A stretch of DNA of 64,000 bases from an uncultured Lentisphaeraceae bacterium. Its GTDB lineage: Bacteria; Verrucomicrobiota; Kiritimatiellia; RFP12; UBA1067. A program made the translations under genes and the position numbers. How positions within the stretch are numbered: the first letter of the stretch is position 1; each line of letters starts with the position of its first letter. Below the pieces are notes generated by a model. It worked only from the letters and a program-made list of their open reading frames with translations, ran no database searches and was not told where the DNA came from. Shown piece by piece: positions 11,868-35,540 of this stretch. The stretch spans positions 50,054 through 114,053 of the forward strand of contig CAYLRN010000004.1 in assembly GCA_964386385.1 (NCBI GenBank). Reading direction: 5' to 3'.

Positions 11868-14800
11868 TCACTTCGCGTACACCCTGAACGTCACGCCGGA
11901 CTGGCGGGCGGGCACGGCGGCGGTCGAATCCCAGACCACGTGGACAGTCTTCGCGGTCTCCTGCGCGGCCATCGTGAACGAGCCGTCGGACACGTTCACC
12001 TCGCTCTGCGTTCCGTCCTCGTTGACCAGCTTCGCCGTCGTCATCGGAAGGCGCACCGTCTCCGTGCCGCTGGCGTACTCGGCCACGATGAAGAGGCGCA
12101 CGGACTTGTTCGACTTCAACTCGAACGTGACGTCCACGAGGCCGTTCCACGGATAGCGCTGACGCGCCGCGACACTGCCGAGCGTGACAGGGGCGTCAAC
12201 GACCTTGTACACGCCGTCCTGCTCGACGAGCTTCGACCATTCCGCAACCTTCGCCCACGAGGCATCCGCCTCCGCGAACGGGGCGCTGTCGTACTCGCCG
12301 CCCGTAATGGTGAGCGTACCGCCGCCAGTGTTGCGTCCGTAGATCGTCGTGACCATGTCCGTGTCAACCGTCCACTCTTCGTCGCCCACGGCGCTTCTGC
12401 TGCCGTAGGCCATGTTTCCGTCCACGGTTGCGGACACCGTCGTGCCGGGCGCGTTGGCCGTCGCGAAGACAGAGCCGACAATGTCCCTGCGGGGCGCGCC
12501 GTTCTTTATCTCCGTGCAGACGATGACGTTGTTGCGCAGCACCGCGTTCTCGACGGTCATCTTCAGTCCGCCGTCGGAAGCGGCGTACGCGACAAGTCCG
12601 GCCGTAGCGCCTGCGCCGACGATCGTCGAATTCAGCAGCGAGCAGTCCTTCATGACGACCTCGCCCGTGTAGCAGATGGAGATGAACGCGGACGTGAAGC
12701 AGTCGGCCGTCGCGTCCAGCGGACTGCGGACCTTCGCGCCGTCGATGACGACGCCGTCAAGCGTGACGGACTTCAGCCAGAACGCATTGTCGAGAACAAG
12801 AGCCGTCTTCTCTCCCGCGCCGACGACATTCGCGTCCTTGAACGTCAGATTCCTCATCGCGAGAACCGTGCCCTTCGCCTCGTTCTTCGGATTGGTGAAC
12901 AGCATTCCCGGCAGTCCCGTGACCGTCTTGCCGTTGCCGTTTACGACGAGCGTCTTGTCGGCGGTGAGTTCGATTGCCTCCCACGTGTCGCCGTCGGTGA
13001 ACGTGATGTCGTCTACGATCTCCACGGGGATGCCGTCGTTCGCCGCGAGCGCGGCCTTGAGCGCCGCCGCGAGGTCGTTGTACTCCGTCTCGCCGACCTT
13101 CGCGACGACGTGCATCTGCACGCCGTACGTGCCGTCGCCGTTCGCCGTCACTTCGTAGCCCTTCGCGCAGTAGTCCGCATCGACCGCCGCCGTGAACGTG
13201 CCGCCCGTGAGGTTGAACTCGTTCCTGGCCGCCGCCGCGTCGCCGGTCGAGGCGATCGTGAACGTGCCGCGGATTCCCGTGCCGTTCGCGGAGACCGTCG
13301 CCTCGTCGTCGATGATGTCGCGGGTGATGAGGCCCTTCGCGCAGTTCTTCACAGTGACGTCCTCAAGCGTGACGACGCCGGAGTTGTCGCTGTACGAGTT
13401 CTTCGAGACGAGCACCGCCGCCTTCTCCGTAAGGCCGTCGAAGGTCGCGCCCTTGATCGTCACGGCGGGCGTTTCGTCCTTGCCCACCGAATAGAGCTTC
13501 ACGCCGCGCTTGCCGGTGAACGTTCCGCCGTTCACCTCGGCCTCGCCGCCGTGCACCCAGAGGTTGTAGCCGTTGTTGCCGCCGGACGTCTCGTTGCAGA
13601 ACGTGCAGTCGTTGTAGAACGTCTTTCCGTACTGGTTGTTGCCGGTTCCGTTCGGGAACGTGCAGCGCATGTAGGTGACGGAGTTCTCCGCCGCGTTCAC
13701 GTTGCGCAGCCACGTCGTGAAGTTGCTCGCGCCGAAGTTGATGTCCTGCACCCAGCCGGAGAGATTCGGCTTCGTGAGCGTGAGGTCGGTGAACTCGACG
13801 TCCACGTCGTACGACTGCTCCGCAAGAAGCGCAACCCGCTTCGTCAGGCAGATTTCCGCGTTTTCGGACGTTCCGACGAACTTCACCAGCTTCACGCCCG
13901 CGAGGCCAGACTTCAGGATCTGCACCCAGCCCTCGCCGTCGACCATCGCCTTGCCGCCGATCTCGTACGTCACGACGCCGTCGGCGTCCGGCTCCGCCGC
14001 CGCGAACGCCGCTTCAAGCGACGCATATCCGACGCCGTTCGCCTTGATGAAGTATTCGACCTTCCAGCCATCCGCATCGCTGCCCGCGAGAGCACAGCCT
14101 TCCGCGACAGTCGCCCAGGAGGCGTCCTCGGCGAACGGACGGTTGTCGTACGTGCCGCCAGTGACGGTGAGCGTGCCGCCGGAGGCATTGCGTCCGTAGA
14201 TTGTCGTCACTTCCGCGTCCTTCGTCAGCGTCTCCGCGTCATACGCGCTCGCGCTGCCGTAGACGGAGTTGTCCGTCATGGTGGCGGACACCGAAGCTCC
14301 GCCCGCGCCGATCGTTCCCACGACCGCGCCGACGATGTCCGTGCGGGGCTTTCCATCCTCGATCTCCGTGCCGACGATCGTGTTGCCGGTCACCTCGCAG
14401 TTCTCGACGACGAGCGCCACAGCTTCGTCAGGGGTCGCCGTCGTGAACGCCACCAGTCCGCCGACCGATCCGCAGCTGACGAGCGTGGAGTTGCGGATGG
14501 CGCAGTTGCGGAGCGTCACCGTCTTCTTGCCGCCGGCGGACACGCCGTTGCACCATGCGATGAAGCCCGCGACGTAGCTGTCCGTTCCGGCGCGGACGTC
14601 CGCGCCCTCGATGACGACGCCGTCGAGCGTGACGTCAATGCCGTAGGCGGCGGGGAGGACCACTGCCGCACCGGACTTGCCGTCCGACGTATAGGAATCC
14701 TTCGGGTTGACGAACTTCAGGTCCGTGACCGTCAGGCTGCCGTTCCACTTGTTGACCGACAGGTCATGCGAGCCGAGCAGGCTTCCCTGCATATTGGATA

Positions 14801-16118
14801 TCGTCTTGCCGTTGCCGTGGACGACGAGCGTTTCGCCGTTGCTGAACGGTACGGGCGTCCACGTGCCGCCGTCGGCGAACGTGACGTCGTCGACGATCTC
14901 CACGGGGACGCCGTCGTTCGCCGCGAGCGCGGCCTTGAGCGCGTCCGCGAGGTCGTTGTACTCCGCATCGCCGACCTTCGCGACGACATGCTTCTTCACG
15001 CCGTACGTGCCGTCGTCGTTCTTGGACAACAGGTAGCCGTCCGCAAGGCCGTCCACCGAATCCGTGGTGAAACTCGCCGCGGAATCGGCAGGAACGATCG
15101 CGCCTACGTAGGACGCCGAAGACGTGCGCACGACATCGCCGTCGATTACGCCGCCGGCAACCGAGACGGAGACTCCATCACCCGCAACTTCGTCCTGCTC
15201 GTCAGTGACGTAGACCGCCGCGACGCCTTTAAGCGTACCGCCGGAAATCGTGACGTCGATCCTGCGGTTCGTCGTGTGCTGCGAGACTGCAACGGCGGCG
15301 CCTATGACCGAAGGTCCGTTATCAAAGGCCTTCGCCGTGAGTTCAGCCGCAGTCGCGACAATCGTACCACCCTCGACATTGAGCGTGCCTGCACGGACTT
15401 CAACGCCCGTGACGCCGGAGACATAAGATCCCTCCTTGATTGTCAACGTGCCAAGTCCTGGGAAATAGACTCCCTCGGAGTTCTTCGCCACCGTCCTGGA
15501 GCCGTTCTCAAGTGTGACGTTAAATGGGACTTCGGCAGAGCCGACACCGGAAATCGCGCCCGCCGCCTCCACGGGCGAGGCAATCTCAACCGTGCCGAAG
15601 ACATCAAGCGAAATGCCGCCCTTGTTCTTGCCGTTGGCCACGATGCCGTTGCACCTGTCCGTCTTGATGGAGACGTCCGCGCCGACCTTGAGCGAGATGC
15701 CGGACTCGTTTTCCATTGTATCTCCAAGGAATACGACGCACTGCGTCACGCCGACGTTCTCGCCACTGGCGGAAATCGTCCCTTTGCCCGTAAAGGTCAC
15801 GTCGCCCGACAGAATCCAGAGCGGAAAGCCGCATGTCGCGTTGAGGTCATGTCCGTTGAGGTCAAGGGTAAGGTCGTCCGTAATCTTGACGAGCGAACCG
15901 AGCGAAACGCCATCGACCAACGTCACCGTGTCGCCCTTTGCGGTGGCCGCAATCGCCGCCTCAAGCGTCTCGTATTCCGCATCGCCCACCTTTGCGACCG
16001 ACGCGGCCGATGCCGTGCCGGCTGCAAAGAACGCCGCCGCGCCAAGCGCGGCAACCACCCACTTCTGCGCGCGCCGCAGCGCGGCGCACACTTTACTACC
16101 TCGTAATTGCGATTTCAT
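11868..16118 (-). CDS. giant secreted beta-helix-type surface protein with an internally duplicated ~300-aa module
   Basis: ORF 11868..16160 trimmed to ATG 16118 (MKSQLRGSK...AAFFAAGTASA; AAGGA RBS). Gly/Thr/Val-rich repeats. Duplicated HVVAKVG(D/E)(A/T)EYNDLA.ALKAALAANDG.PVEIVDD modules. Confidence 0.75.
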   Translation of the reverse strand: MKSQLRGSKVCAALRRAQKWVVAALGAAAFFAAGTASAASVAKVGDAEYETLEAAIAATAKGDTVTLVDGVSLGSLVKITDDLTLDLNGHDLNATCGFPLWILSGDVTFTGKGTISASGENVGVTQCVVFLGDTMENESGISLKVGADVSIKTDRCNGIVANGKNKGGISLDVFGTVEIASPVEAAGAISGVGSAEVPFNVTLENGSRTVAKNSEGVYFPGLGTLTIKEGSYVSGVTGVEVRAGTLNVEGGTIVATAAELTAKAFDNGPSVIGAAVAVSQHTTNRRIDVTISGGTLKGVAAVYVTDEQDEVAGDGVSVSVAGGVIDGDVVRTSSASYVGAIVPADSAASFTTDSVDGLADGYLLSKNDDGTYGVKKHVVAKVGDAEYNDLADALKAALAANDGVPVEIVDDVTFADGGTWTPVPFSNGETLVVHGNGKTISNMQGSLLGSHDLSVNKWNGSLTVTDLKFVNPKDSYTSDGKSGAAVVLPAAYGIDVTLDGVVIEGADVRAGTDSYVAGFIAWCNGVSAGGKKTVTLRNCAIRNSTLVSCGSVGGLVAFTTATPDEAVALVVENCEVTGNTIVGTEIEDGKPRTDIVGAVVGTIGAGGASVSATMTDNSVYGSASAYDAETLTKDAEVTTIYGRNASGGTLTVTGGTYDNRPFAEDASWATVAEGCALAGSDADGWKVEYFIKANGVGYASLEAAFAAAEPDADGVVTYEIGGKAMVDGEGWVQILKSGLAGVKLVKFVGTSENAEICLTKRVALLAEQSYDVDVEFTDLTLTKPNLSGWVQDINFGASNFTTWLRNVNAAENSVTYMRCTFPNGTGNNQYGKTFYNDCTFCNETSGGNNGYNLWVHGGEAEVNGGTFTGKRGVKLYSVGKDETPAVTIKGATFDGLTEKAAVLVSKNSYSDNSGVVTLEDVTVKNCAKGLITRDIIDDEATVSANGTGIRGTFTIASTGDAAAARNEFNLTGGTFTAAVDADYCAKGYEVTANGDGTYGVQMHVVAKVGETEYNDLAAALKAALAANDGIPVEIVDDITFTDGDTWEAIELTADKTLVVNGNGKTVTGLPGMLFTNPKNEAKGTVLAMRNLTFKDANVVGAGEKTALVLDNAFWLKSVTLDGVVIDGAKVRSPLDATADCFTSAFISICYTGEVVMKDCSLLNSTIVGAGATAGLVAYAASDGGLKMTVENAVLRNNVIVCTEIKNGAPRRDIVGSVFATANAPGTTVSATVDGNMAYGSRSAVGDEEWTVDTDMVTTIYGRNTGGGTLTITGGEYDSAPFAEADASWAKVAEWSKLVEQDGVYKVVDAPVTLGSVAARQRYPWNGLVDVTFELKSNKSVRLFIVAEYASGTETVRLPMTTAKLVNEDGTQSEVNVSDGSFTMAAQETAKTVHVVWDSTAAVPARQSGVTFRVYAK

Positions 16119-28091: not shown

Positions 28092-28143
28092 CACGCACAT
28101 GGCGGCAAAGTTGCCCGAACATTGCCGTTTGGCAACATTGAAG

Positions 28144-28158
28144 ATTAAGTGGTTAAGT
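28144..28158 (+). repeat. 15-mer ATTAAGTGGTTAAGT (left island boundary)
   Basis: Exact copy of 1564..1578. The HsdR-like reading frame opens at 28157, inside this motif. Confidence 0.8.
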
Positions 28159-28216
28159 TGGGTCCCATAACGGCGAGACGATATCGTGCGAGCAGCAAGT
28201 ACGCACTCGCGACAAG

Positions 28217-30463
28217 ATGACCCGCGCCGAGAAATGGGAGACGCTCGACGACGATCTTCCATACACAGGCAAGGACCTCGACAGGAAAGTCGTAAACAAG
28301 AGCCAGATTCGCACAGTCATCTTGGAGTTCCAAAATGTCTTGTACTCCAAACTCTTCCCTCGCAGATCCGGCAGACATGTGCCAAAGACCCTCATTTTCG
28401 CCAAGGACGATTCGCACGCAAACGACATTGTCGACATCGTGCGCGAAGTGTTCGGCGAGGGCAACGATTTCTGCAAGAAGGTCACGTATCAGGGCGACGA
28501 AAATCCAAAGAGCATACTGTCGCAGTTCAGGAACGACTACTATCCCCGCATCGCCGTCACCGTCGACATGATTGCGACGGGCACGGACATGAAGCCGCTC
28601 GAATACCTTGTCTTCATGCGCGACGTTCGCAGCGCAAACTATTTCGAGCAGATGAAGGGACGCGGAACGCGTACCATTGACGTTGAGGCGCTCAAGAGGG
28701 TCACGCCGGACGCCAAAGACGGCAAACAGCACTACATCCTTGTCGATGCGATCGGCGTGACGTCGTCGATGAAAGTCATATCAGGCGATTTCGAGAAGAA
28801 GCCGGGCGTCTCGCTCAAGGAACTTCTGCAAAAGGCCGCGCTTTCACAACTGACCGCCGACGAGGGGTCGTCGCTTGCGAGATGCCTTGTAAAACTCGGA
28901 AATGTGTTGACGAATGACGAACAGGCGAAGATTGCGCAGCTGACGGGCGGCAAAGACCTTAAATCCGTGGCCAAAGACCTCCACTGCGCATTCGACCCCG
29001 ACAACGTCAGCTCCGCTGCGACAGCGGAGAAGATTGCAGACCCCAACCTGTCCGACGACGAAGCGAAGGCAAAGACCGAAGAGAGACTTCAAAACGAGGC
29101 CACAAAGCCGTTCACCGGGGTTCTGAATCAGTTTCTTGTGAACGAGTGGAACTGGCAGATTCTTAAGTCAAAAACCGGAACCGAACTGAAAGACTGCTAC
29201 GAGAAACTTCTCGCCGTCCTCGGCAGCGAGCCAGGCATGCTTGGACAGATGTTCCTTCAGGCGAAGAACCATATCGGCACTCCGGCTCGTCTTGCAGGGG
29301 TGATAGACATGATCATCGGGCGCGAGACTTGGAGCGGAATGAACACCGACCTTAAAGGCGACATCTACGAGGAGCTTCTTGCCAAGACCGCCGAAGACAA
29401 GAAAAGCGACGCTGGACAGTACTTCACCGCCCGCGCCCTCATGTCGGCAATCATGCAGTGTGTCCGTCCACAGCCGGGCGAGACGATCTGCGACCCCGCC
29501 CGCGGAACGGGTGGATTCTTCCTCAAGGCATACGAATACATCCTCGAACGCTTCGCGGACACAATGAACGTTCACCAGAAGAAGTTTCTGCGCGACGAGA
29601 CTTTCTCCGGAAACGAGATCGTGCCCACCACGCGCCGCCTTTGCCTGATGAACATGTATCTGCACAACATGGGCACTCTCGACGGAGCGGTCCCCATTGA
29701 ACTCAAGGACGCGCTCGTGTCCTCGCCGTCAACCCTTGTGAAGATCGTCGCGACGAATCCTCCGTTCGGCAAGAAAACCGCCCAGACCGTCATCAACGAG
29801 GAAGGCGAGGAGAGCAAGGAGAAACAAATCTACAACCGCCAGGACTTCTGGTGCGTGACCTCGAACAAGCAGTTGAACTTCGTGCAGCACATCCGGACCC
29901 TGCTGCGCACGGACGGGCGGGCGGCAGTCGTCTTGCCGGATAATGTCCTGTTCGAGAAAGGCGCGGGGGAAACGATCCGCAGGAAGCTTATGGACACGAT
30001 GGATCTCCATACCATTCTCCGCCTCCCGACTGGAATCTTCTACGCGCAGGGCGTAAGGGCAAATGTCCTCTTCTTCGATGCCCGTCCTGCCTCAAAGAAC
30101 GTCCAGACAAAGGAAGTGTGGGTTTACGACTATCGCACGAACATCCACCATACATTCAAGCCGAATCCGATGCGAGAAGAGGATCTTGCAGATTTCGTCA
30201 AATGCTACAATCCGGAAAACCGCCACAAGAGGCATGAGACCTGGAGCGAATCTAACCCGGACGGACGCTGGCGCAAGTTTTCATACGACGAGATCGTCAA
30301 GCGCGAAGCGACAAATCTCGACTTCAAGTGGATCAAGGAGAAGTCGGATTCCGTGGAGGACGTCTCGCTTTCCGAACTCATTGACGAACTCAAATCGCAC
30401 CGAGAGGCGTATGCTGCAGCCATCAATGGACTTGATGCAGCCCTTGCGGAGGTCGGTGAATGA
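28217..30463 (+). CDS. hsdM: type I R-M methyltransferase HsdM fused in frame to a C-terminal HsdR fragment
   Basis: The N-terminal ~300 aa are helicase-C/EcoEI_R_C-like (TLIFAKDDSHA, DMIATGTDMKPLEYLVFMR, QMKGRGTR). The rest is HsdM (QYFTARAL, DPARGTGGF, NPPFG). The usual HsdM N-terminal ~50 aa are absent. Confidence 0.75.
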   Translation: MTRAEKWETLDDDLPYTGKDLDRKVVNKSQIRTVILEFQNVLYSKLFPRRSGRHVPKTLIFAKDDSHANDIVDIVREVFGEGNDFCKKVTYQGDENPKSILSQFRNDYYPRIAVTVDMIATGTDMKPLEYLVFMRDVRSANYFEQMKGRGTRTIDVEALKRVTPDAKDGKQHYILVDAIGVTSSMKVISGDFEKKPGVSLKELLQKAALSQLTADEGSSLARCLVKLGNVLTNDEQAKIAQLTGGKDLKSVAKDLHCAFDPDNVSSAATAEKIADPNLSDDEAKAKTEERLQNEATKPFTGVLNQFLVNEWNWQILKSKTGTELKDCYEKLLAVLGSEPGMLGQMFLQAKNHIGTPARLAGVIDMIIGRETWSGMNTDLKGDIYEELLAKTAEDKKSDAGQYFTARALMSAIMQCVRPQPGETICDPARGTGGFFLKAYEYILERFADTMNVHQKKFLRDETFSGNEIVPTTRRLCLMNMYLHNMGTLDGAVPIELKDALVSSPSTLVKIVATNPPFGKKTAQTVINEEGEESKEKQIYNRQDFWCVTSNKQLNFVQHIRTLLRTDGRAAVVLPDNVLFEKGAGETIRRKLMDTMDLHTILRLPTGIFYAQGVRANVLFFDARPASKNVQTKEVWVYDYRTNIHHTFKPNPMREEDLADFVKCYNPENRHKRHETWSESNPDGRWRKFSYDEIVKREATNLDFKWIKEKSDSVEDVSLSELIDELKSHREAYAAAINGLDAALAEVGE

Positions 30464-32014
30464 CCACCGTCGAGAAAATCAAGGCGAAGATTCTCGACCT
30501 CGCCATTCGCGGCAAGCTCGTGCCGCAAGATTCCGCTGACGAGCCAGCGCGCGTTCTCCTTGAACGTATCAAGGCGGAGAAGGCGGAACTCGTCAAGGCC
30601 AAGAAGATAAAGAAGGACAATAATCCTTCCGAAATCGTCGTCGGTTCCGATGGGATGCCCTATGAGACCGTAAACGGCAAGACGAAGTGCATACAGGATG
30701 AAATCCCGTTTGAACTGCCGAAAGGCTGGGCGTGGGCAAGGTTGGGCGAGATTTCCAATTATGGGAAATGCCAAGGCGTGTCTGCAGGCGAAGTCTCTGC
30801 CAACACATGGTCGCTCGCTCTTGAAGACATTGAAAAAGGAACTGGAAAACTACTTGTTCGCAAACTTGTACAGGCCAAGCCATCGACAAGCTCAAAACAC
30901 GGTTTTAGAAAAGGAATGTTGTTGTACAGCAAATTGCGCACCTATTTGAACAAGGTACTCATTGCCGACATGGACGGAGTTTGCACATCTGAAATAATCC
31001 CAATTTCCTTTGAAGGAGGAATATTACCTACGTTCATGCGAATAATCTTGATGTCGCCATACTTTCTTTCATACACGGCAAGTAAGGATTATGGCGTCAA
31101 GATGCCTCGCCTCGGCAAGTCAGACGCGCGAGCGGCACTCATTCCAATTCCCCCCCTCGCCGAGCAGAGGCGCATTGTGGCGAAGGCCGAAACTAACTGC
31201 ATACGCCGACAGGGCTGGCGTGGCGGCGGACGGGCTGGAAGCGACGGCGCGGCGGATTGAAAGGAAGATTCTCGACCTTGCCATTCGCGGAAAGCTCGTC
31301 CCGCAAGACCCGTCCGACGAGCCTACGGTCGAACTGCTGAAGCGCGTCGCCGCCGAGCGACAGGCGCTCGTAAAGGCAGGGAAACTGAAGGTGAGCAAGG
31401 CCGAAGCCACTTTCCTCCGCGCTTCCGATAGGCCCGCCTATGCGACGCCGGAGGGAGGGTCGCGCTCCTGCGCGACCGCCGACGCTCCGTTCCCCATCCC
31501 GCCGGGTTGGAAATGGGTGCGCCTGGGGGATGTGTCAAACTATGGGCAATGTTCGAGCGTAGGCGTCATCGACATTGATTCAAATACATGGTCGCCTGAC
31601 CTGGAAGACATAGAGAAAGACTCTGGACGGCTTGTCGTGCGCAAGACCGCAGCGGAAAGGCAATCGGAAAGCAGCAGACATACGTTCACAAAAGGAACGT
31701 TGCTTTACAGCAAGCTCCGCACATACCTGAACAAGGTTCTTGTCGCCGACATGGACGGCGTATGTACGTCCGAAATCGTTCCCGTGGAATTGCACGGCGG
31801 CATCAGCGCGGAATATGTCCGCCTTGTCCTGATGTCGCCGTACTTTCTGGAATACACGGCTTCAAGGGGCTATGGCGTGAAGATGCCGCGTATTGGGACG
31901 AATGACATGAGGGCGACGTCCATCCCCCTCCCACCCCTTGCCGAGCAGAAGCGGATTGTGGCGAAGGTCGAGGGGGTGAAAGCCCTGTTGGACAATCTGA
32001 AAAGCCGATTTTAG
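30460..32014 (+). pseudogene. hsdS: hsdS specificity subunit (two TRDs) split by a +1 frameshift
   Basis: Track ORFs 30460..31260 and 31091..32014 together form CR-TRD1-CR-TRD2-CR (KILDLAIRGKLVPQD twice, LPPLAEQ(R/K)RIVAK twice). The frame breaks at GAAA 31189..31192. Confidence 0.7.
30666..30746 (+). repeat. 81-bp inverted repeat, left arm (inside hsdS TRD1 entry)
   Basis: 79/81 identical to the reverse complement of 34709..34789. The only difference is TA versus CG. Confidence 0.9.
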
Positions 32015-32043
32015 CCGCTGTCACATTTGACTGTGAGACATGT

Positions 32044-32081
32044 TCATCCCTACACGAGTTTGCAAACTCGTGTAGGGATGA
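32044..32081. repeat. 38-bp perfect palindrome P1
   Basis: tcatccctacacgagtttg|caaactcgtgtagggatga. Confidence 0.9.
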
Positions 32082-32087
32082 AATCGT

Positions 32088-32687
32088 TCAGGAGAGACAG
32101 AGTTCGGAAAGTCCTAGGACTGCTTTTGAAGGATGCGGGACGGCTCTCGTTCTCGCAGGAAGGCCGTGGCGGATGGGCGTTTCAACTTCCGCAAAACCAT
32201 TGCGGCAAAGCGTTCGGCGATGCTTCAGGACTGTTCTGGCGGATATTCGGAGCTGTCGGCCAATCTCCTCGCAATCGACCCATCCGCCGGTCTTCAGCAG
32301 ATACTTCATCATTTTGACGGCATTCGACGTCCGCAGCGCCGAAAAGAGCGCAATGACCTCTTCGTCGCTTCTGCCTTCCTGAAACATCCCCATGACGATT
32401 TCCATCACCCTGCCGGCCTGTGGGACAATGGGGTCGGACTTGAACTCGTAGAACACGTTGACGGACTTTCGCCTTGCATGGATCAGTCCGCGAGCCTGCA
32501 GTTCCTTGAGATAGAGACTTATCGTTCCCTTGCGCATCGCCGTCTGGCGCACCATACCCATGACCGTCAACGACTTCTCCTTCATCAAGATCCGCAGGAT
32601 GCGAAGCCGCACGGGGTTTGCTACGACACGGCACGTTTTCCACAAGGTCGGCGACAGCGCGTTCAATTTTGTCGGGGTGCGTTTCAT
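32088..32687 (-). CDS. double winged-helix (ArsR-like) DNA-binding protein
   Basis: ORF 32088..32912 trimmed to ATG 32687 (MKRTPTKLN...). ArsR-type ANPVRLRILRIL...SLYLKELQARGLI. Second HTH CEEIGRQLRISARTVLKHRR. Confidence 0.55.
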   Translation of the reverse strand: MKRTPTKLNALSPTLWKTCRVVANPVRLRILRILMKEKSLTVMGMVRQTAMRKGTISLYLKELQARGLIHARRKSVNVFYEFKSDPIVPQAGRVMEIVMGMFQEGRSDEEVIALFSALRTSNAVKMMKYLLKTGGWVDCEEIGRQLRISARTVLKHRRTLCRNGFAEVETPIRHGLPARTRAVPHPSKAVLGLSELCLS

Positions 32688-32700
32688 GGCGGTGATTATA

Positions 32701-32738
32701 CCATCCCTGCACGAGTTTGCAAACTCGTGTAGGGATGG
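32701..32738. repeat. 38-bp palindrome P2 (1 mismatch)
   Basis: ccatccctGcacgagtttgcaaactcgtgtagggatgg. Lies between the divergent starts 32687 (-) and 32831 (+). Confidence 0.9.
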
Positions 32739-32830
32739 TGTTGCCAAAATATGCAGAATCGTCTGCAGGACAGAAGGCCTCATGACACTTAGTTTCGCTA
32801 TCATGGCTGACCTTGCGAAAGGGAACTGCC

Positions 32831-33640
32831 ATGATAGACCTTGAAGGATTCGACGCATTCCTGCGGAGGACAAACAAGTCGGACAACACAATCGCCTCGT
32901 ATCTCTATGCATTGCGGCAGTTCGCCGCGCTTCACGCGAAGATCGACAGGCAAACGCTTGGCCCGCACAAGGCGTATCTGCTTGAACACTTCAAGCCGAA
33001 GACGGTCAACGTACGACTGCTTGCGCTCAACTGCTACGCCGGAAGCATCGGCAAGCCCGAACTCAAGATTCCGCTCGTGCGCATACAGCAGAAGCCGTTC
33101 CTCGAGAATGTCATCAGTGACGCCGACTACGCGTACTTCAAGCGGCGGCTGGACAATCCGTCGGAACGGTACTGGTACTTCGTCGTTCGCTTCCTTGCGG
33201 CGACGGGTGCGCGCATCAGCGAACTTCTCCAGTTGAAGGTGGAACACGTCGTCCTGGGACATGTCGACCTCTACTCCAAGGGTGGCAAGATGCGCCGCAT
33301 CTACATCCCTCAGAAACTTGTTGAAGAGTCGTTGTCTTGGCTCTCTTCGCGCAATCAAACGACAGGCTTCATCTTCGTCAACCGAAGCGGCGAACGCATC
33401 ACGGCAAGAGGAATCGCCGCGCAGCTGAAGAAACTGGCAATCAAGTACAAATTGAATCCTGCGGTTGTCTGTCCACACTCATTCCGCCACCGGTTTGCCA
33501 AGAACTTCCTTGAAAGGTTCAACGACATATCACTGCTTGCAGACCTCATGGGACATGAAAGCATAGAGACGACGAGAATCTACCTCCGACGCACAAGCAC
33601 GGAGCAACGCTCAATCGTCGATAGGGTTGTGACGTGGTGA
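32831..33640 (+). CDS. tyrosine site-specific recombinase (XerC/D-like integrase)
   Basis: ATG 32831 (MIDLEGFDAFL). Catalytic signature ATGARISEL ... HSFRHRFA ... GHESIETTRIY. Confidence 0.85.
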   Translation: MIDLEGFDAFLRRTNKSDNTIASYLYALRQFAALHAKIDRQTLGPHKAYLLEHFKPKTVNVRLLALNCYAGSIGKPELKIPLVRIQQKPFLENVISDADYAYFKRRLDNPSERYWYFVVRFLAATGARISELLQLKVEHVVLGHVDLYSKGGKMRRIYIPQKLVEESLSWLSSRNQTTGFIFVNRSGERITARGIAAQLKKLAIKYKLNPAVVCPHSFRHRFAKNFLERFNDISLLADLMGHESIETTRIYLRRTSTEQRSIVDRVVTW

Positions 33641-34124
33641 AGTTTGCGGAACGATGTCCTTCGCAATTGGCGTGAAAATCCCGCCGCTATCATTCCGCAA
33701 ATGTGATATCACATACGGACAAGAACGAAATGGTAATAATATACGAATCGTGCGAAGAAACCGCCAAGCGACAGCGGACCTCCGCTCGGCGTGTACATGT
33801 TCTCTGCGCAAACAGATAGGGCGAAGGCGCTCGGCGCGACGGCAAACTGTGGATGATTCCGCAGACGACAGGAAAGCCGCTCGACGGTCGGACGAAACGC
33901 AGGCTTGTGATTCCCGCAGCCATGCGCGGAGAAATCATCGAAGTCGACAGTCTCAAGGACAAACTTGCCGACAGGCGCATTACGAGGCGTTCACGTCATG
34001 TCACGCCAAAGGCGACGGCGCGCCAATGCTTGCGATATTCGCGGAGCGTGAACGACCGAGACTTGCGGATTGCCTGTCTATTTTTACATTCGTGCCACTT
34101 GCCCGTATTTTAAGAGGGGAATCT

Positions 34125-34170
34125 CATTCCACCCCTACACGAGTTTGCAAACTCGTGTAGGGGTGGAATG
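34125..34170. repeat. 46-bp perfect palindrome P3
   Basis: cattccacccctacacgagtttg|caaactcgtgtaggggtggaatg. Confidence 0.9.
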
Positions 34171-34218
34171 TGCCGCTCATGCCAATCTGATTATGCCTGA
34201 AACCGTTATTTCAGTTTG

Positions 34219-34977
34219 TCAAGCAGGGCAAACAGTTCTTCGACCTTCGCCGCAATCCGCCTCTACTCGGCGAGGGGGGGGAAGAGGTACGATCAATTCG
34301 TTCAAGTATTCGGCTTTCAGATTCCTTATGTTTGTACCTTTGGATTTTTCGCGTATGTGCTTGCGGTAATAGTCTCCTAAAAAAACAAGTGGCAGCCATC
34401 CAGTTACCTCTTCCGATACAGCCCGCACAATTCTCAAAAAAGCACCGATCTGTACGCTGGGCATATCCTGGCGCACAATTGCCGGCCGTCCAATCACCGC
34501 ACTGCTGCCCGTTGAGGCCACAACAACAACATCACCCTTTGAGACTGCCATTGTAGCGTCAGCATATACGTTCGGAAGGAACACATCATCATCGTAAAGG
34601 TAAACGTTTGCGTCTTCTTTGATATTACCTCCACGAAGTATTCGCACACCTTCATGTGTCACATCATTCTTCTGATATGATGCTCTAGCAATAATTTGAA
34701 CGAGATTTCCCAACCTTGCCCACGCCCAGCCTTTCGGCAGTTCAAACGGGATTTCATCCTGCGTGCACTTCGTCTTGCCGTTTACGGTCCCATAGGCGGG
34801 CCTATCGGAAGCGCGGAAGATGACGGATTCGGCGGTGCGCGAGGACACGCGCCCTCCCTTTCGTCCACGAGAGGCACGACGCTCCCCTATGCGCTTCAGG
34901 AGTTCGCCCGCAGGTTCGTCGCACTAGTCTTGCGGAACAAGTATGCCTCTGATTGCAAGATCGATAATCACTACCAT
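34219..34977 (-). pseudogene. inverted silent/decayed hsdS' half-gene (alternative TRD cassette)
   Basis: One frame from ATG 34977 reads MVVIIDLAIRGILVPQD*CDEP...FRASDRPAYGTVNGKTKCTQDEIPFELPKGWAWARLG...TRD...PLPP. In-frame TAG at 34926..34924. At the 3' end, a C8 tract (34281..34274) and TAG (34265..34263) replace the conserved PPLAEQ. Confidence 0.7.
34709..34789 (-). repeat. 81-bp inverted repeat, right arm (inside hsdS')
   Basis: Reverse complement matches 30666..30746 at 79/81. Confidence 0.9.
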
Positions 34978-35508
34978 GCAATAGAGTGGCTTTAGAGTGC
35001 AGATATGTTGCGTTCTCTGCCATAAGCGCACGATTGGGAAATCGCTTCAAGAAGCGTGTGATGACGTATTCTGCCGAAATCTGTTTTTAGGGCGTTCCTT
35101 TCCGTCCCGGGCATGTGCCATCCAATGGCCAGTCGTTCAAAGCGCCCGGCAGATACGGCATTCTTTCGTCTGGCGGAGGCTTGTTCCGGCTCGATGCCAC
35201 GCAATAGAAATCGCGCACGGATTCAAGCGAACGCCTCAGCCAGATCGTGTTCTTGATGACGGCAATCTATTCGATCCTGTACCCGGGAAGGTGTCATTGG
35301 ACTATTTAGTGTCTGCCCAGCAATTCAAAGAGGAGCGCTACAGGCGGCTGTTCGCGTCGCGGCGCGGGGGAGGCGGACGACTCCACCTCGTGGCATTTCA
35401 TCGAGATTCCAGAGGATGGCGCATGAACGCGCCGCAAGACGCCCTTTGTTGGGCAGACACTAAGTAGTTAAGTTGCTGTCTCTCATTTAGGCGCTTGACC
35501 ACTCACGC

Positions 35509-35540
35509 ACTTAACCACTTAACTACTTAACCACTTAATC
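35509..35540 (-). repeat. TTAAGT 8-mer array (4 units) containing the 15-mer in inverted orientation
   Basis: acttaaccacttaactacttaaccacttaatc. Supplies the last codons and the TAA stop of the adjacent gene. Confidence 0.8.

What the first reader, a model, noticed from the sequence alone, without database searches (positions are those of the whole stretch)
28157..35475. Invertible (shufflon-type) type I R-M locus with its own tyrosine recombinase
hsdM-hsdS (+) are followed by a tyrosine recombinase (+) and an oppositely oriented hsdS' half-gene (-). An 81-bp segment at the entry to TRD1 (30666..30746) is repeated in inverted orientation in hsdS' (34709..34789) at 79/81 identity. The conserved PPLAEQRRI region is also shared in inverted orientation. 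This layout matches phase-variable type I systems, where recombination swaps target-recognition domains and changes methylation specificity.
Basis: partly seen in the sequence, partly recalled or inferred. Interest (0 to 1): 0.65.

Follow-up and report, generated by a model that had tools for sequence, protein, structure and literature searches.

The report
Decayed invertible type I restriction-modification island
This is a broken-down, horizontally acquired copy of a well-known kind of DNA-flipping restriction-modification locus, so the layout is real but the system almost certainly no longer restricts DNA or switches methylation.

Summary
The 81-bp inverted repeat is 79/81 identical and extends to 119 nt. 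Four further in-register repeat pairs link hsdS (+) to an opposed hsdS' (-). An intact tyrosine recombinase lies between them and is 58% identical over its full length to the streptococcal hsdS invertase PsrA. A sister locus (HsdM about 88% identical) occurs in both orientations in different metagenomes, with TRD2 swapped, so this locus family does invert.

This copy, however, is a wreck:
- The "hsdM" ORF (28217-30463) is a chimera of HsdR residues 401-709 fused in frame to HsdM residues ~59-498.
- The HsdR nuclease, first motor domain and C-terminal domain are missing, and so is the N-terminal stretch of HsdM.
- hsdS is frameshifted at ~31190.
- hsdS' carries two TAG stops and a frameshift in a G8 run.

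The locus is a ~7.4-kb, 54% GC island in a 65% GC Kiritimatiellia genome.

Verdict: a decayed member of a known kind, the PsrA-type "epigenetic inverton". Whether it still flips could not be tested.

Side observation: an ArsR-like gene bracketed by a conserved 34-nt palindrome has been inserted beside the recombinase.

The parts
28143..28158 (.). Left edge: host repeat motif GATTAAGTGGTTAAGT. It is a perfect 16-nt inverted repeat with 35525-35540.
   Evidence: I18. The same motif occurs at window 245, 1565 and 1952-1980, so it is a host intergenic repeat and not an island end. GC falls from ~65% to ~54% here.
28163..29143 (+). hsdR fragment equivalent to codons 383-709 of 921. Only the region around helicase domain 2 remains. 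The ORF start at 28217 corresponds to internal Met401.
   Evidence: tblastn against the sister HsdR: 81% identity over 327 aa. BLASTP against P0034: 88%. Domain map of the intact relative.
29144..30463 (+). hsdM fragment (codons ~59-498) fused in frame to the hsdR fragment. N6_Mtase domain present; the N-terminal stretch that matches HsdM_N is lost.
   Evidence: 91% identity to P0002 residues 54-498. Pfam N6_Mtase E 1.3e-62 with no HsdM_N hit. DNA junction at 29144/29145.
30460..31260 (+). hsdS 5' ORF (266 aa): N-terminal conserved helix, TRD1 (30748-31146), PPLAEQRRIV, then an out-of-frame tail after the frameshift at ~31190.
31190..32014 (+). hsdS 3' part in the +1 frame: rest of the central conserved region, TRD2 (31529-31927) and the C-terminal conserved region. 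TRD2 is 62% identical to TRD1.
   Evidence: tblastn alignment changes frame at 31190/31191. Translation and TRD identity.
30628..30746 (.). Inverted repeat A, left arm (core 30666-30746), at the entry to TRD1.
34709..34827 (.). Inverted repeat A, right arm (core 34709-34789), at the entry to TRD'.
31150..31191 (.). Inverted repeat B, left arm (PPLAEQRRIVAKAE codons), starting with a C7 run.
   Evidence: (I5).
34239..34280 (.). Inverted repeat B, right arm. It overlaps the G8 run (34274-34281, extra base = frameshift) and holds TAG (34265-34263) where CAG is expected.
31267..31446 (.). Inverted repeats C (31267-31345) and D (31395-31446), left arms: the central conserved region and the linker before TRD2.
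   Evidence: I3, I4.
34787..34969 (.). Inverted repeats D (34787-34838) and C (34891-34969), right arms, in hsdS'.
   Evidence: I3, I4.
32045..32084 (.). Palindrome P1, between the hsdS stop and the wHTH stop.
32088..32687 (-). ArsR/SmtB-like double winged-helix gene (199 aa). It is a cargo insertion that sister islands lack.
   Evidence: Pfam HTH_5. NCBIfam NF033788 at 58.9 bits against a cut-off of 55. No tblastn hit in any of the 80 recombinase loci fetched.
32698..32741 (.). Palindrome P2. It overlaps the best sigma-70-like promoter of the island (TTGCAA-16-TATAAT, minus strand), which drives the wHTH gene.
32831..33640 (+). PsrA-family tyrosine invertase (269 aa), intact.
   Evidence: Pfam Phage_integrase. 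58% identity to PsrA WP_000651186.1, E 6e-116. 78-86% identity to recombinases of sister islands. An independent Logan contig is identical.
33641..34124 (.). Spacer of unknown origin with no convincing gene.
   Evidence: No blastn or tblastx match to any fetched locus. No Pfam or NCBIfam hit for its ORFs.
34125..34170 (.). Palindrome P3 (25-nt perfect arms).
   Evidence: (I9).
34219..34968 (-). Silent hsdS': remnant of the central conserved region (IIDLAIRG...), TAG at 34926-34924, linker, TRD' (34707-34294, unrelated to TRD1/2) and a damaged PPLAE*RRI tail.
34970..35508 (.). Right-hand island DNA of unknown origin (GC ~55%).
35509..35540 (.). Right edge: three overlapping copies of the host motif ACTTAAC(C/T)ACTTAA.

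Best explanation
The locus is a pseudogenised remnant of a PsrA-type invertible type I R-M island (an 'epigenetic inverton'). Its HsdR is of the EcoAI/EcoEI-like lineage. The island was acquired horizontally by a Kiritimatiellia genome.

In the intact form, hsdR-hsdM-hsdS are transcribed together. A tyrosine invertase recombines inverted repeats in the conserved parts of hsdS and of a silent, opposed hsdS'. This exchanges target-recognition domains and so changes the methylation and restriction specificity.

In this copy the repeats and the invertase survive, but the R-M genes are broken:
- hsdR is reduced to codons 383-709.
- That fragment is fused in frame to an hsdM lacking its first ~58 codons.
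- hsdS is frameshifted in its central conserved region.
- hsdS' has two nonsense codons and a frameshift.

Shown: the anatomy, the lesions, the homology to PsrA, and inversion in a sister locus. Inferred: loss of restriction is near certain, loss of methylation is likely, and the invertase may still flip the 30747-34708 segment without any epigenetic consequence.
For: Chimera and truncations: the closest database proteins are separate HsdM (498 aa, 91% identity, covering query 303-748) and HsdR (919-921 aa, 88%, residues 401-709 covering query 1-309). tblastn places HsdR 383-709 at 28163-29143 and HsdM 54-498 at 29123-30460. No other hsdR or hsdM piece occurs anywhere in the 64-kb window.

Lost domains: the intact relative has HSDR_N at 51-121, ResIII/DEAD at 160-344, EcoEI_R_C at 740-919 and HsdM_N at 17-61. 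All of these fall in the missing parts.

Independent assembly: a separate Logan assembly of run SRR10277277 gives the same 748-aa ORF.

hsdS lesions: frameshift at 31190. hsdS' has TAG at 34926-34924, a G8 frameshift at 34274-34281 and TAG at 34265-34263.

HsdM substitutions: changes that are unique at columns invariant in the 15 relatives include G->D in SGAGQYFT and a 1-residue insertion.

Inverton features: the repeats are in register, so simulated inversions at A, B and D join the reading frames correctly. The invertase is 58% identical to PsrA and keeps the ATGAR...K...HSFRH...GH...Y residues.

Sister locus: L009/L010 differ from L002 by an inversion between 12294-12536 and 15637-15879 at 98-99.9% identity, with TRD2 swapped.

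Family context: in about half of the 80 loci that carry a relative of this recombinase, hsdS-like sequence lies on both sides in opposite orientation.

Island signature: 54% GC against 65% in the flanks. Host assignment rests on RlmN.
Against: - The non-synonymous divergence on this lineage is not raised for the hsdR and hsdM fragments (branch dN 0.054 and 0.034, against 0.063-0.079 and 0.028-0.049 for relatives). The decay is therefore recent, or the fragments still matter.
- The hsdR'-'hsdM fusion is in frame and keeps the whole N6_Mtase domain with NPPF. Residual methyltransferase activity is not excluded.
- A crossover in repeat B between 31168 and 31189 would produce a clean 250-aa one-TRD hsdS ending ...PPLAEQRRIAAKVEELFALLDKLK.
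- The small lesions (a frameshift of a few bases, single-base stops) rest on a short-read metagenome assembly that I could not check against reads.
Confidence: 0.8

Rival explanations
1. A working phase-variable type I methyltransferase. The chimeric M protein and a half-size or frameshift-tolerant S subunit still methylate, and inversion changes the motif.
For: N6_Mtase domain intact with NPPF. Repeats in register and invertase intact. dN not raised. One simulated crossover gives an intact one-TRD hsdS. From general knowledge, not tested here: truncated one-TRD HsdS proteins can dimerise in some type I systems.
Against: The most conserved N-terminal stretch of HsdM is deleted and replaced by 309 aa of HsdR. 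G->D falls in the invariant SGAGQYFT motif. The native hsdS ORF loses its coiled-coil helix 8 residues after PPLAEQ. Every simulated inversion except one narrow crossover window yields a truncated product. No promoter-like site was found upstream of 28217.
Confidence: 0.07
2. A completely inert fossil. The invertase is not expressed or not active on these repeats, so the segment never flips.
For: Only one orientation is seen in the two assemblies available. No sigma-70-like promoter was found upstream of the recombinase. An inserted wHTH cassette sits directly upstream of it.
Against: The recombinase ORF is full length, with the catalytic residues conserved. The 81-nt core of repeat A is 97.5% identical while neighbouring repeats are 77-90%. 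That pattern is expected if exchange or gene conversion is recent.
Confidence: 0.45
3. Assembly artefact: a chimeric contig or a mis-joined repeat creates the apparent truncations.
For: The source is a metagenome assembly. Inverted repeats and palindromes break de Bruijn graphs: Logan contigs end at 30723 and 34154.
Against: Two assemblies agree on the host-flank / hsdR' / 'hsdM stretch up to 30723 and on 32623-34154. The hsdR'-'hsdM junction lies inside unique sequence. The Logan break at 30723 is exactly where k-mers become shared between the two arms, as expected for a true repeat.
Confidence: 0.03

Closest known systems
Streptococcus pneumoniae cod / ivr / SpnD39III locus with the PsrA (CreX) invertase (PMC4190663, PMC7096588)
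   Same: hsdR-hsdM-hsdS followed by a tyrosine invertase and opposed silent hsdS copies, with several inverted-repeat pairs in the conserved hsdS regions. The recombinase here is 58% identical over its full length to PsrA of S. dysgalactiae.
   Different: Here there is one silent hsdS' with a single TRD. The R, M and S genes are all damaged. An ArsR-like gene with palindromes sits in the invertible segment. The host is a high-GC Kiritimatiellia bacterium. No inversion or methylation data exist.
Uncultured sister locus in gut/rumen-type metagenomes (L002, L005-L011, L014)
   Same: Same gene family: HsdM about 88%, HsdR fragment 81%, recombinase 78% identical. Same order: hsdR-hsdM-hsdS-(cargo)-recombinase-hsdS'. 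Also a low-GC island in a higher-GC genome (46% against 61%).
   Different: The sister locus is intact (921-, 498- and 505-aa products). Its hsdS' has two TRDs. It is found in both orientations. Its cargo is an AAA_14/DUF4143 ATPase or nothing, not the wHTH cassette.
Bacteroides fragilis NCTC9343 phase-variable type I R-M, and the 'epigenetic invertons' of host-associated bacteria (PMC7641763, PMC7672463)
   Same: The same principle: shuffling of TRD-encoding half genes by inversion at repeats in hsdS, with a co-located tyrosine recombinase. Relatives of this recombinase are common in Bacteroidales and Clostridia genomes.
   Different: B. fragilis has three silent hsdS genes and eight variants, and its system is functional. 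The paper places its invertase in a different clade from PsrA.

Membership tests
Epigenetic inverton / phase-variable type I R-M (criteria in PMC7672463) | At least two hsdS genes in one type I locus | tested here: met
   hsdS at 30460-32014 (+) and hsdS' at 34968-34219 (-).
Epigenetic inverton / phase-variable type I R-M | Inverted repeats inside the hsdS coding regions | tested here: met
   Five pairs. The best is 79/81, extending to 119 nt at 88%.
Epigenetic inverton / phase-variable type I R-M | Invertase gene co-located with the locus | tested here: met
   32831-33640, Phage_integrase family, 58% identical to PsrA.
Epigenetic inverton / phase-variable type I R-M | Inversion joins the two hsdS reading frames in register | tested here: met
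   Simulated crossovers at repeats A, B and D read through the junction in frame.
Epigenetic inverton / phase-variable type I R-M | Inversion products are intact hsdS genes, each specifying a methylated motif | tested here: not met
   The native hsdS is frameshifted. Products of inversion at A, C and D end in the damaged hsdS' tail or hit TAG. Only a crossover within 31168-31189 gives an intact (one-TRD) ORF. Methylation itself is not testable with these tools.
Epigenetic inverton / phase-variable type I R-M | Both orientations present in a population | not testable with these tools
   Only one orientation appears in the two assemblies, and the Logan contigs stop inside the repeats. No copy was found in JGI metagenomes. 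The feature is met for the sister locus, L002 against L009/L010.
Complete type I R-M system | HsdR with nuclease, two RecA-like motor domains and a C-terminal domain | tested here: not met
   Only residues 383-709 of 921 remain. HSDR_N, ResIII/DEAD and EcoEI_R_C are absent.
Complete type I R-M system | Full-length HsdM (HsdM_N plus N6_Mtase) | tested here: not met
   N6_Mtase is present (E 1.3e-62), but residues 1-~58, which include the HsdM_N match, are deleted.
Complete type I R-M system | HsdS with two TRDs and two conserved regions in one reading frame | tested here: not met
   Frameshift at ~31190.
PsrA-family tyrosine invertase | Full-length similarity to PsrA and conserved tyrosine-recombinase catalytic residues | tested here: met
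   155/266 identical, E 6e-116. ATGAR, SKGGKMRR, HSFRH, GHESIETTRIY are all conserved.
PsrA-family tyrosine invertase | Catalyses inversion at hsdS repeats | not testable with these tools
   No read-level or biochemical data.

The most novel reading that the evidence does not exclude
Two unexcluded readings go beyond 'dead inverton'.

(1) The invertase still flips the 30747-34708 segment although the R-M genes are dead. This would be a 'zombie' inverton whose only remaining effect is to reorient the recombinase and wHTH genes.

(2) The palindrome-wHTH-palindrome unit (~700 bp) is an undescribed small mobile or self-contained regulatory cassette. Its palindromes are 97-100% conserved while the gene's DNA is 75% identical, and it sits in unrelated genomic contexts. 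Here it has landed in the invertible segment, with one palindrome in the divergent region between the wHTH gene and the invertase gene, and could put the invertase under repressor control.
Probability: 0.15. Interest if true: 0.45.

Novelty: new member of a known kind. Interest (0 to 1): 0.2.

Why it matters
Invertible type I R-M loci are well documented across many phyla (PMC7672463, PMC7394358, PMC9881135). Another example, and a decayed one, adds little.

Its modest value is threefold:
- It shows a PsrA-family inverton in Kiritimatiellia.
- It illustrates how such islands decay after transfer: the R and M genes go first, while the invertase and repeats persist.
- It warns automated inverton surveys that "two hsdS + repeats + recombinase" does not imply a working epigenetic switch.

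The palindrome-bracketed regulator cassette is a small separate lead.

Tried and rejected
- dN/dS of the hsdR, hsdM and recombinase fragments against sister loci. dS is saturated (nan or >1.4) and branch dN is not raised, so the test says nothing about when decay happened.
- Searching for the same element or its inverted form elsewhere. The exact recombinase is found only on a collinear 1.5-kb Logan contig. The 748-aa ORF is found only on a Logan contig that ends inside repeat A at 30723. A 35-nt core of repeat A has no match in JGI metagenomes.
- Looking for an empty site in a sister strain (RlmN 95% identical). All its contigs end ~40 nt after rlmN.
- The 16-nt perfect inverted repeat at the island edges as ends of a mobile element. 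Rejected, because the motif recurs in other host intergenic regions and hsdR is already truncated right beside it.
- The palindromes as canonical intrinsic terminators. They form very stable hairpins (z -6.5 to -9.3) but have no T-run and were not called by the terminator scan. One sits upstream of a gene, over its promoter.
- Rfam. Only sub-threshold mir-135 hits on palindrome P3, which are spurious.
- The palindrome core in JGI metagenomes and IMG/VR. No match.
- Plasmid collection. Only the recombinase matched in the DNA search, and the wHTH protein search found nothing.
- Segments 33641-34124 and 34970-35525. No similarity to any fetched locus and no family hit.
Full report
**Observation.** The reported repeat is real. 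Window 30666-30746 and the reverse complement of 34709-34789 agree at 79 of 81 positions. The similarity extends to 119 nt at 88% (30628-30746 / 34709-34827, I1).

Four more inverted pairs link the plus-strand hsdS to the minus-strand hsdS':
- 31150-31191 / 34239-34280: the PPLAEQRRI codons, 42 nt, 90%.
- 31267-31345 / 34891-34969: 79 nt, 77%.
- 31395-31446 / 34787-34838: 52 nt, 83%.
- 31924-32050 / 34161-34287: 127 nt, 70%.

A Phage_integrase-family gene lies between them on the plus strand. Its ORF is listed as 32813-33640, and the likely start is ATG 32831 (Pfam E 2e-26).

**What the genes really are.** The 748-aa ORF at 28217-30463, taken as hsdM, is a chimera. In the protein database its best hits are two separate families. 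One is HsdM of 496-505 aa (91% identity, covering query 303-748). The other is HsdR of 919-921 aa (88%, HsdR residues 401-709 covering query 1-309).

tblastn with a sister locus places HsdR 383-709 at 28163-29143 and HsdM 54-498 at 29123-30460. The DNA-level junction is at 29144/29145. In the intact relative, HSDR_N lies at residues 51-121, ResIII/DEAD at 160-344, EcoEI_R_C at 740-919 and the HsdM_N match at 17-61. All of these lie in the missing parts, and no other hsdR or hsdM piece exists in the 64-kb window.

The HsdM part also carries changes that are unique in a 16-sequence alignment. These are G->D in the invariant SGAGQYFT motif, a one-residue insertion, and I->M and E->D at columns invariant in the 15 relatives. 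C->R in DPACGTGG falls at a column where the relatives have C, S or T.

hsdS (30460-32014) changes frame at ~31190, inside the central conserved region. The first ORF therefore ends at 31260 after an out-of-frame tail, and TRD2 is read in the +1 frame. TRD1 and TRD2 are paralogues (82/133 identical). TRD' of hsdS' is unrelated to both.

hsdS' (34968->34219) begins with a remnant of the central conserved region (IIDLAIRG). It carries TAG at 34926-34924. It also has an extra base in a G8 run (34274-34281, against C7 at 31150-31156 in hsdS) and TAG in place of CAG in PPLAEQ (34265-34263).

**Setting.** The stretch ~28160-35500 has about 54% GC, against about 65% on both sides. The flanking genes are ordinary host genes: rlmN, a tyrosine phosphatase, a CxxCxxCC protein and a glycoside hydrolase. 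RlmN is 82% identical to that of a Kiritimatiellia MAG. The closest recombinase in genomes (86%) is also from a Kiritimatiellia MAG.

A perfect 16-nt inverted repeat frames the island (28143-28158 / 35525-35540, I18). The same motif recurs at window 245, 1565 and 1952-1980. It is therefore a host intergenic repeat and not an element end. hsdR homology starts only five bases after it, already truncated.

**Does this family of loci invert?** Yes. Contigs that encode an HsdM 88% identical to the HsdM part here carry the intact order hsdR (921 aa) - hsdM (498) - hsdS (505) - [AAA_14 ATPase] - recombinase (269) - hsdS'. L009 and L010 differ from L002 by an inversion whose breakpoints fall in the 243-nt repeat 12294-12536 / 15637-15879, at 98-99.9% identity. 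TRD2 is exchanged between hsdS and hsdS'.

The recombinase in the window is 78% identical to the one in that locus. It is 58% identical (E 6e-116, full length) to streptococcal PsrA, the invertase of the pneumococcal cod/ivr locus, and the catalytic residues are conserved (PMC7096588). In about half of 80 genomic loci that hold a relative of this recombinase, hsdS-like sequence lies on both sides in opposite orientation. hsdM and hsdR are adjacent where the contig reaches far enough.

**Would inversion here do anything?** The repeats are in register. Simulated crossovers at repeats A, B and D read through the junction in frame. The products are nonetheless defective:
- Inversion at A gives N-terminus-TRD' ending in the frameshifted tail.
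- Inversions at C or D act downstream of the hsdS frameshift and again end in the damaged tail, or hit the TAG.
- Only a crossover in repeat B between 31168 and 31189 would produce a clean one-TRD ORF.

Restriction activity is excluded. With a truncated, mutated M subunit, methylation is unlikely.

The 97.5% identity of the 81-nt core stands against 77-90% for the other repeats. This hints at recent exchange, so the segment may still flip, but that could not be tested. The Logan contigs of the same run stop at 30723 and in palindrome P3. Those are exactly the points where k-mers become shared, which says nothing about orientation. The element is absent from JGI metagenomes.

**Comparison with known systems.** By the criteria used for "epigenetic invertons", this locus has the anatomy: at least two hsdS genes, inverted repeats in hsdS, a co-located invertase, and frames kept on inversion (PMC7672463). 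It fails the requirement for intact R, M and S genes. It works like, or once worked like, the pneumococcal cod/ivr locus and the B. fragilis system (PMC4190663, PMC7641763). It is best filed as a decayed new member of that known kind.

**Side observation.** Between hsdS and the recombinase lies an ArsR/SmtB-like double winged-helix gene (32088-32687, minus strand). It is tightly bracketed by a perfect palindrome, ATCCCTACACGAGTTTGCAAACTCGTGTAGGGAT (P1 at 32045-32084, P2 at 32698-32741). A third copy (P3, 34125-34170) lies beyond the recombinase.

Homologues of the gene (74-76% amino-acid identity, 75% DNA identity) sit in unrelated contexts and carry the same palindrome. L094-L096 have it at both positions. 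L097 has only the downstream copy. The copies are 96-100% identical, and the DNA outside them is unrelated.

The centre of the upstream palindrome supplies TTGCAA 16 nt before a TG-extended TATAAT. This is the best promoter-like site in the island, and it lies 9 nt before the start codon. That layout fits an autoregulated repressor with its operator over the promoter, or a small mobile cassette. Sister R-M islands lack the unit.

Noticed in passing
window 32045-32741 and 34125-34170; L094 5951-6652; L096 1164-1865; L097 6001-6695: A ~700-bp unit, an ArsR-like double winged-helix gene bracketed by a 34-nt perfect palindrome, recurs in unrelated genomic contexts. The palindromes are 96-100% identical while the gene's DNA is only 75% identical, and the flanks are unrelated. 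L097 carries only the downstream copy. The upstream palindrome overlaps a strong sigma-70-like promoter. The outer stem bases differ between copies but stay self-complementary.
   Followed up: partly
window 28143-28158, 35459-35540, 245-258, 1565-1595, 1950-1985: The host-specific motif TTAAGTGGTTAAGT (and variants, often in tandem) occurs in several intergenic regions and at both edges of the island in inverted orientation. Its function is unknown; it may be a regulatory element, a REP-like element or a recombination hot spot.
   Followed up: partly
window 31150-31156 and 34274-34281: Homopolymer runs (C7 in hsdS, G8 in hsdS') sit exactly at the PPL codons of the conserved PPLAEQ motif. The extra base in hsdS' causes its frameshift. 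Tracts of this length could slip.
   Followed up: no
window 30748-31146 vs 31529-31927: The two TRDs of the expressed hsdS are paralogues (62% amino-acid identity), and the two halves of the gene form a ~780-nt tandem duplication. An intact enzyme would have recognised a near-symmetric target.
   Followed up: partly
L002 13044-14225, L007, L012 2649-5374: The cargo between hsdS and the invertase varies among sister islands. It is an AAA_14/DUF4143 ATPase in L002, nothing in L007, and five small minus-strand ORFs in the Kiritimatiellia MAG locus L012.
   Followed up: no
L098-L101 (sister strain, RlmN 95% identical): All contigs of the sister strain shown here (4 places, standing for 7 contigs, from several sequencing runs) end about 40 nt after rlmN. 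This suggests a repeat or a polymorphic junction at the position where the window continues into the phosphatase gene and the island.
   Followed up: no
window 33641-34124 and 34970-35508: Two island segments of ~0.5 kb each have no detectable gene, family or relative. The second contains its own 23-nt inverted repeat (35301-35323 / 35446-35468).
   Followed up: partly
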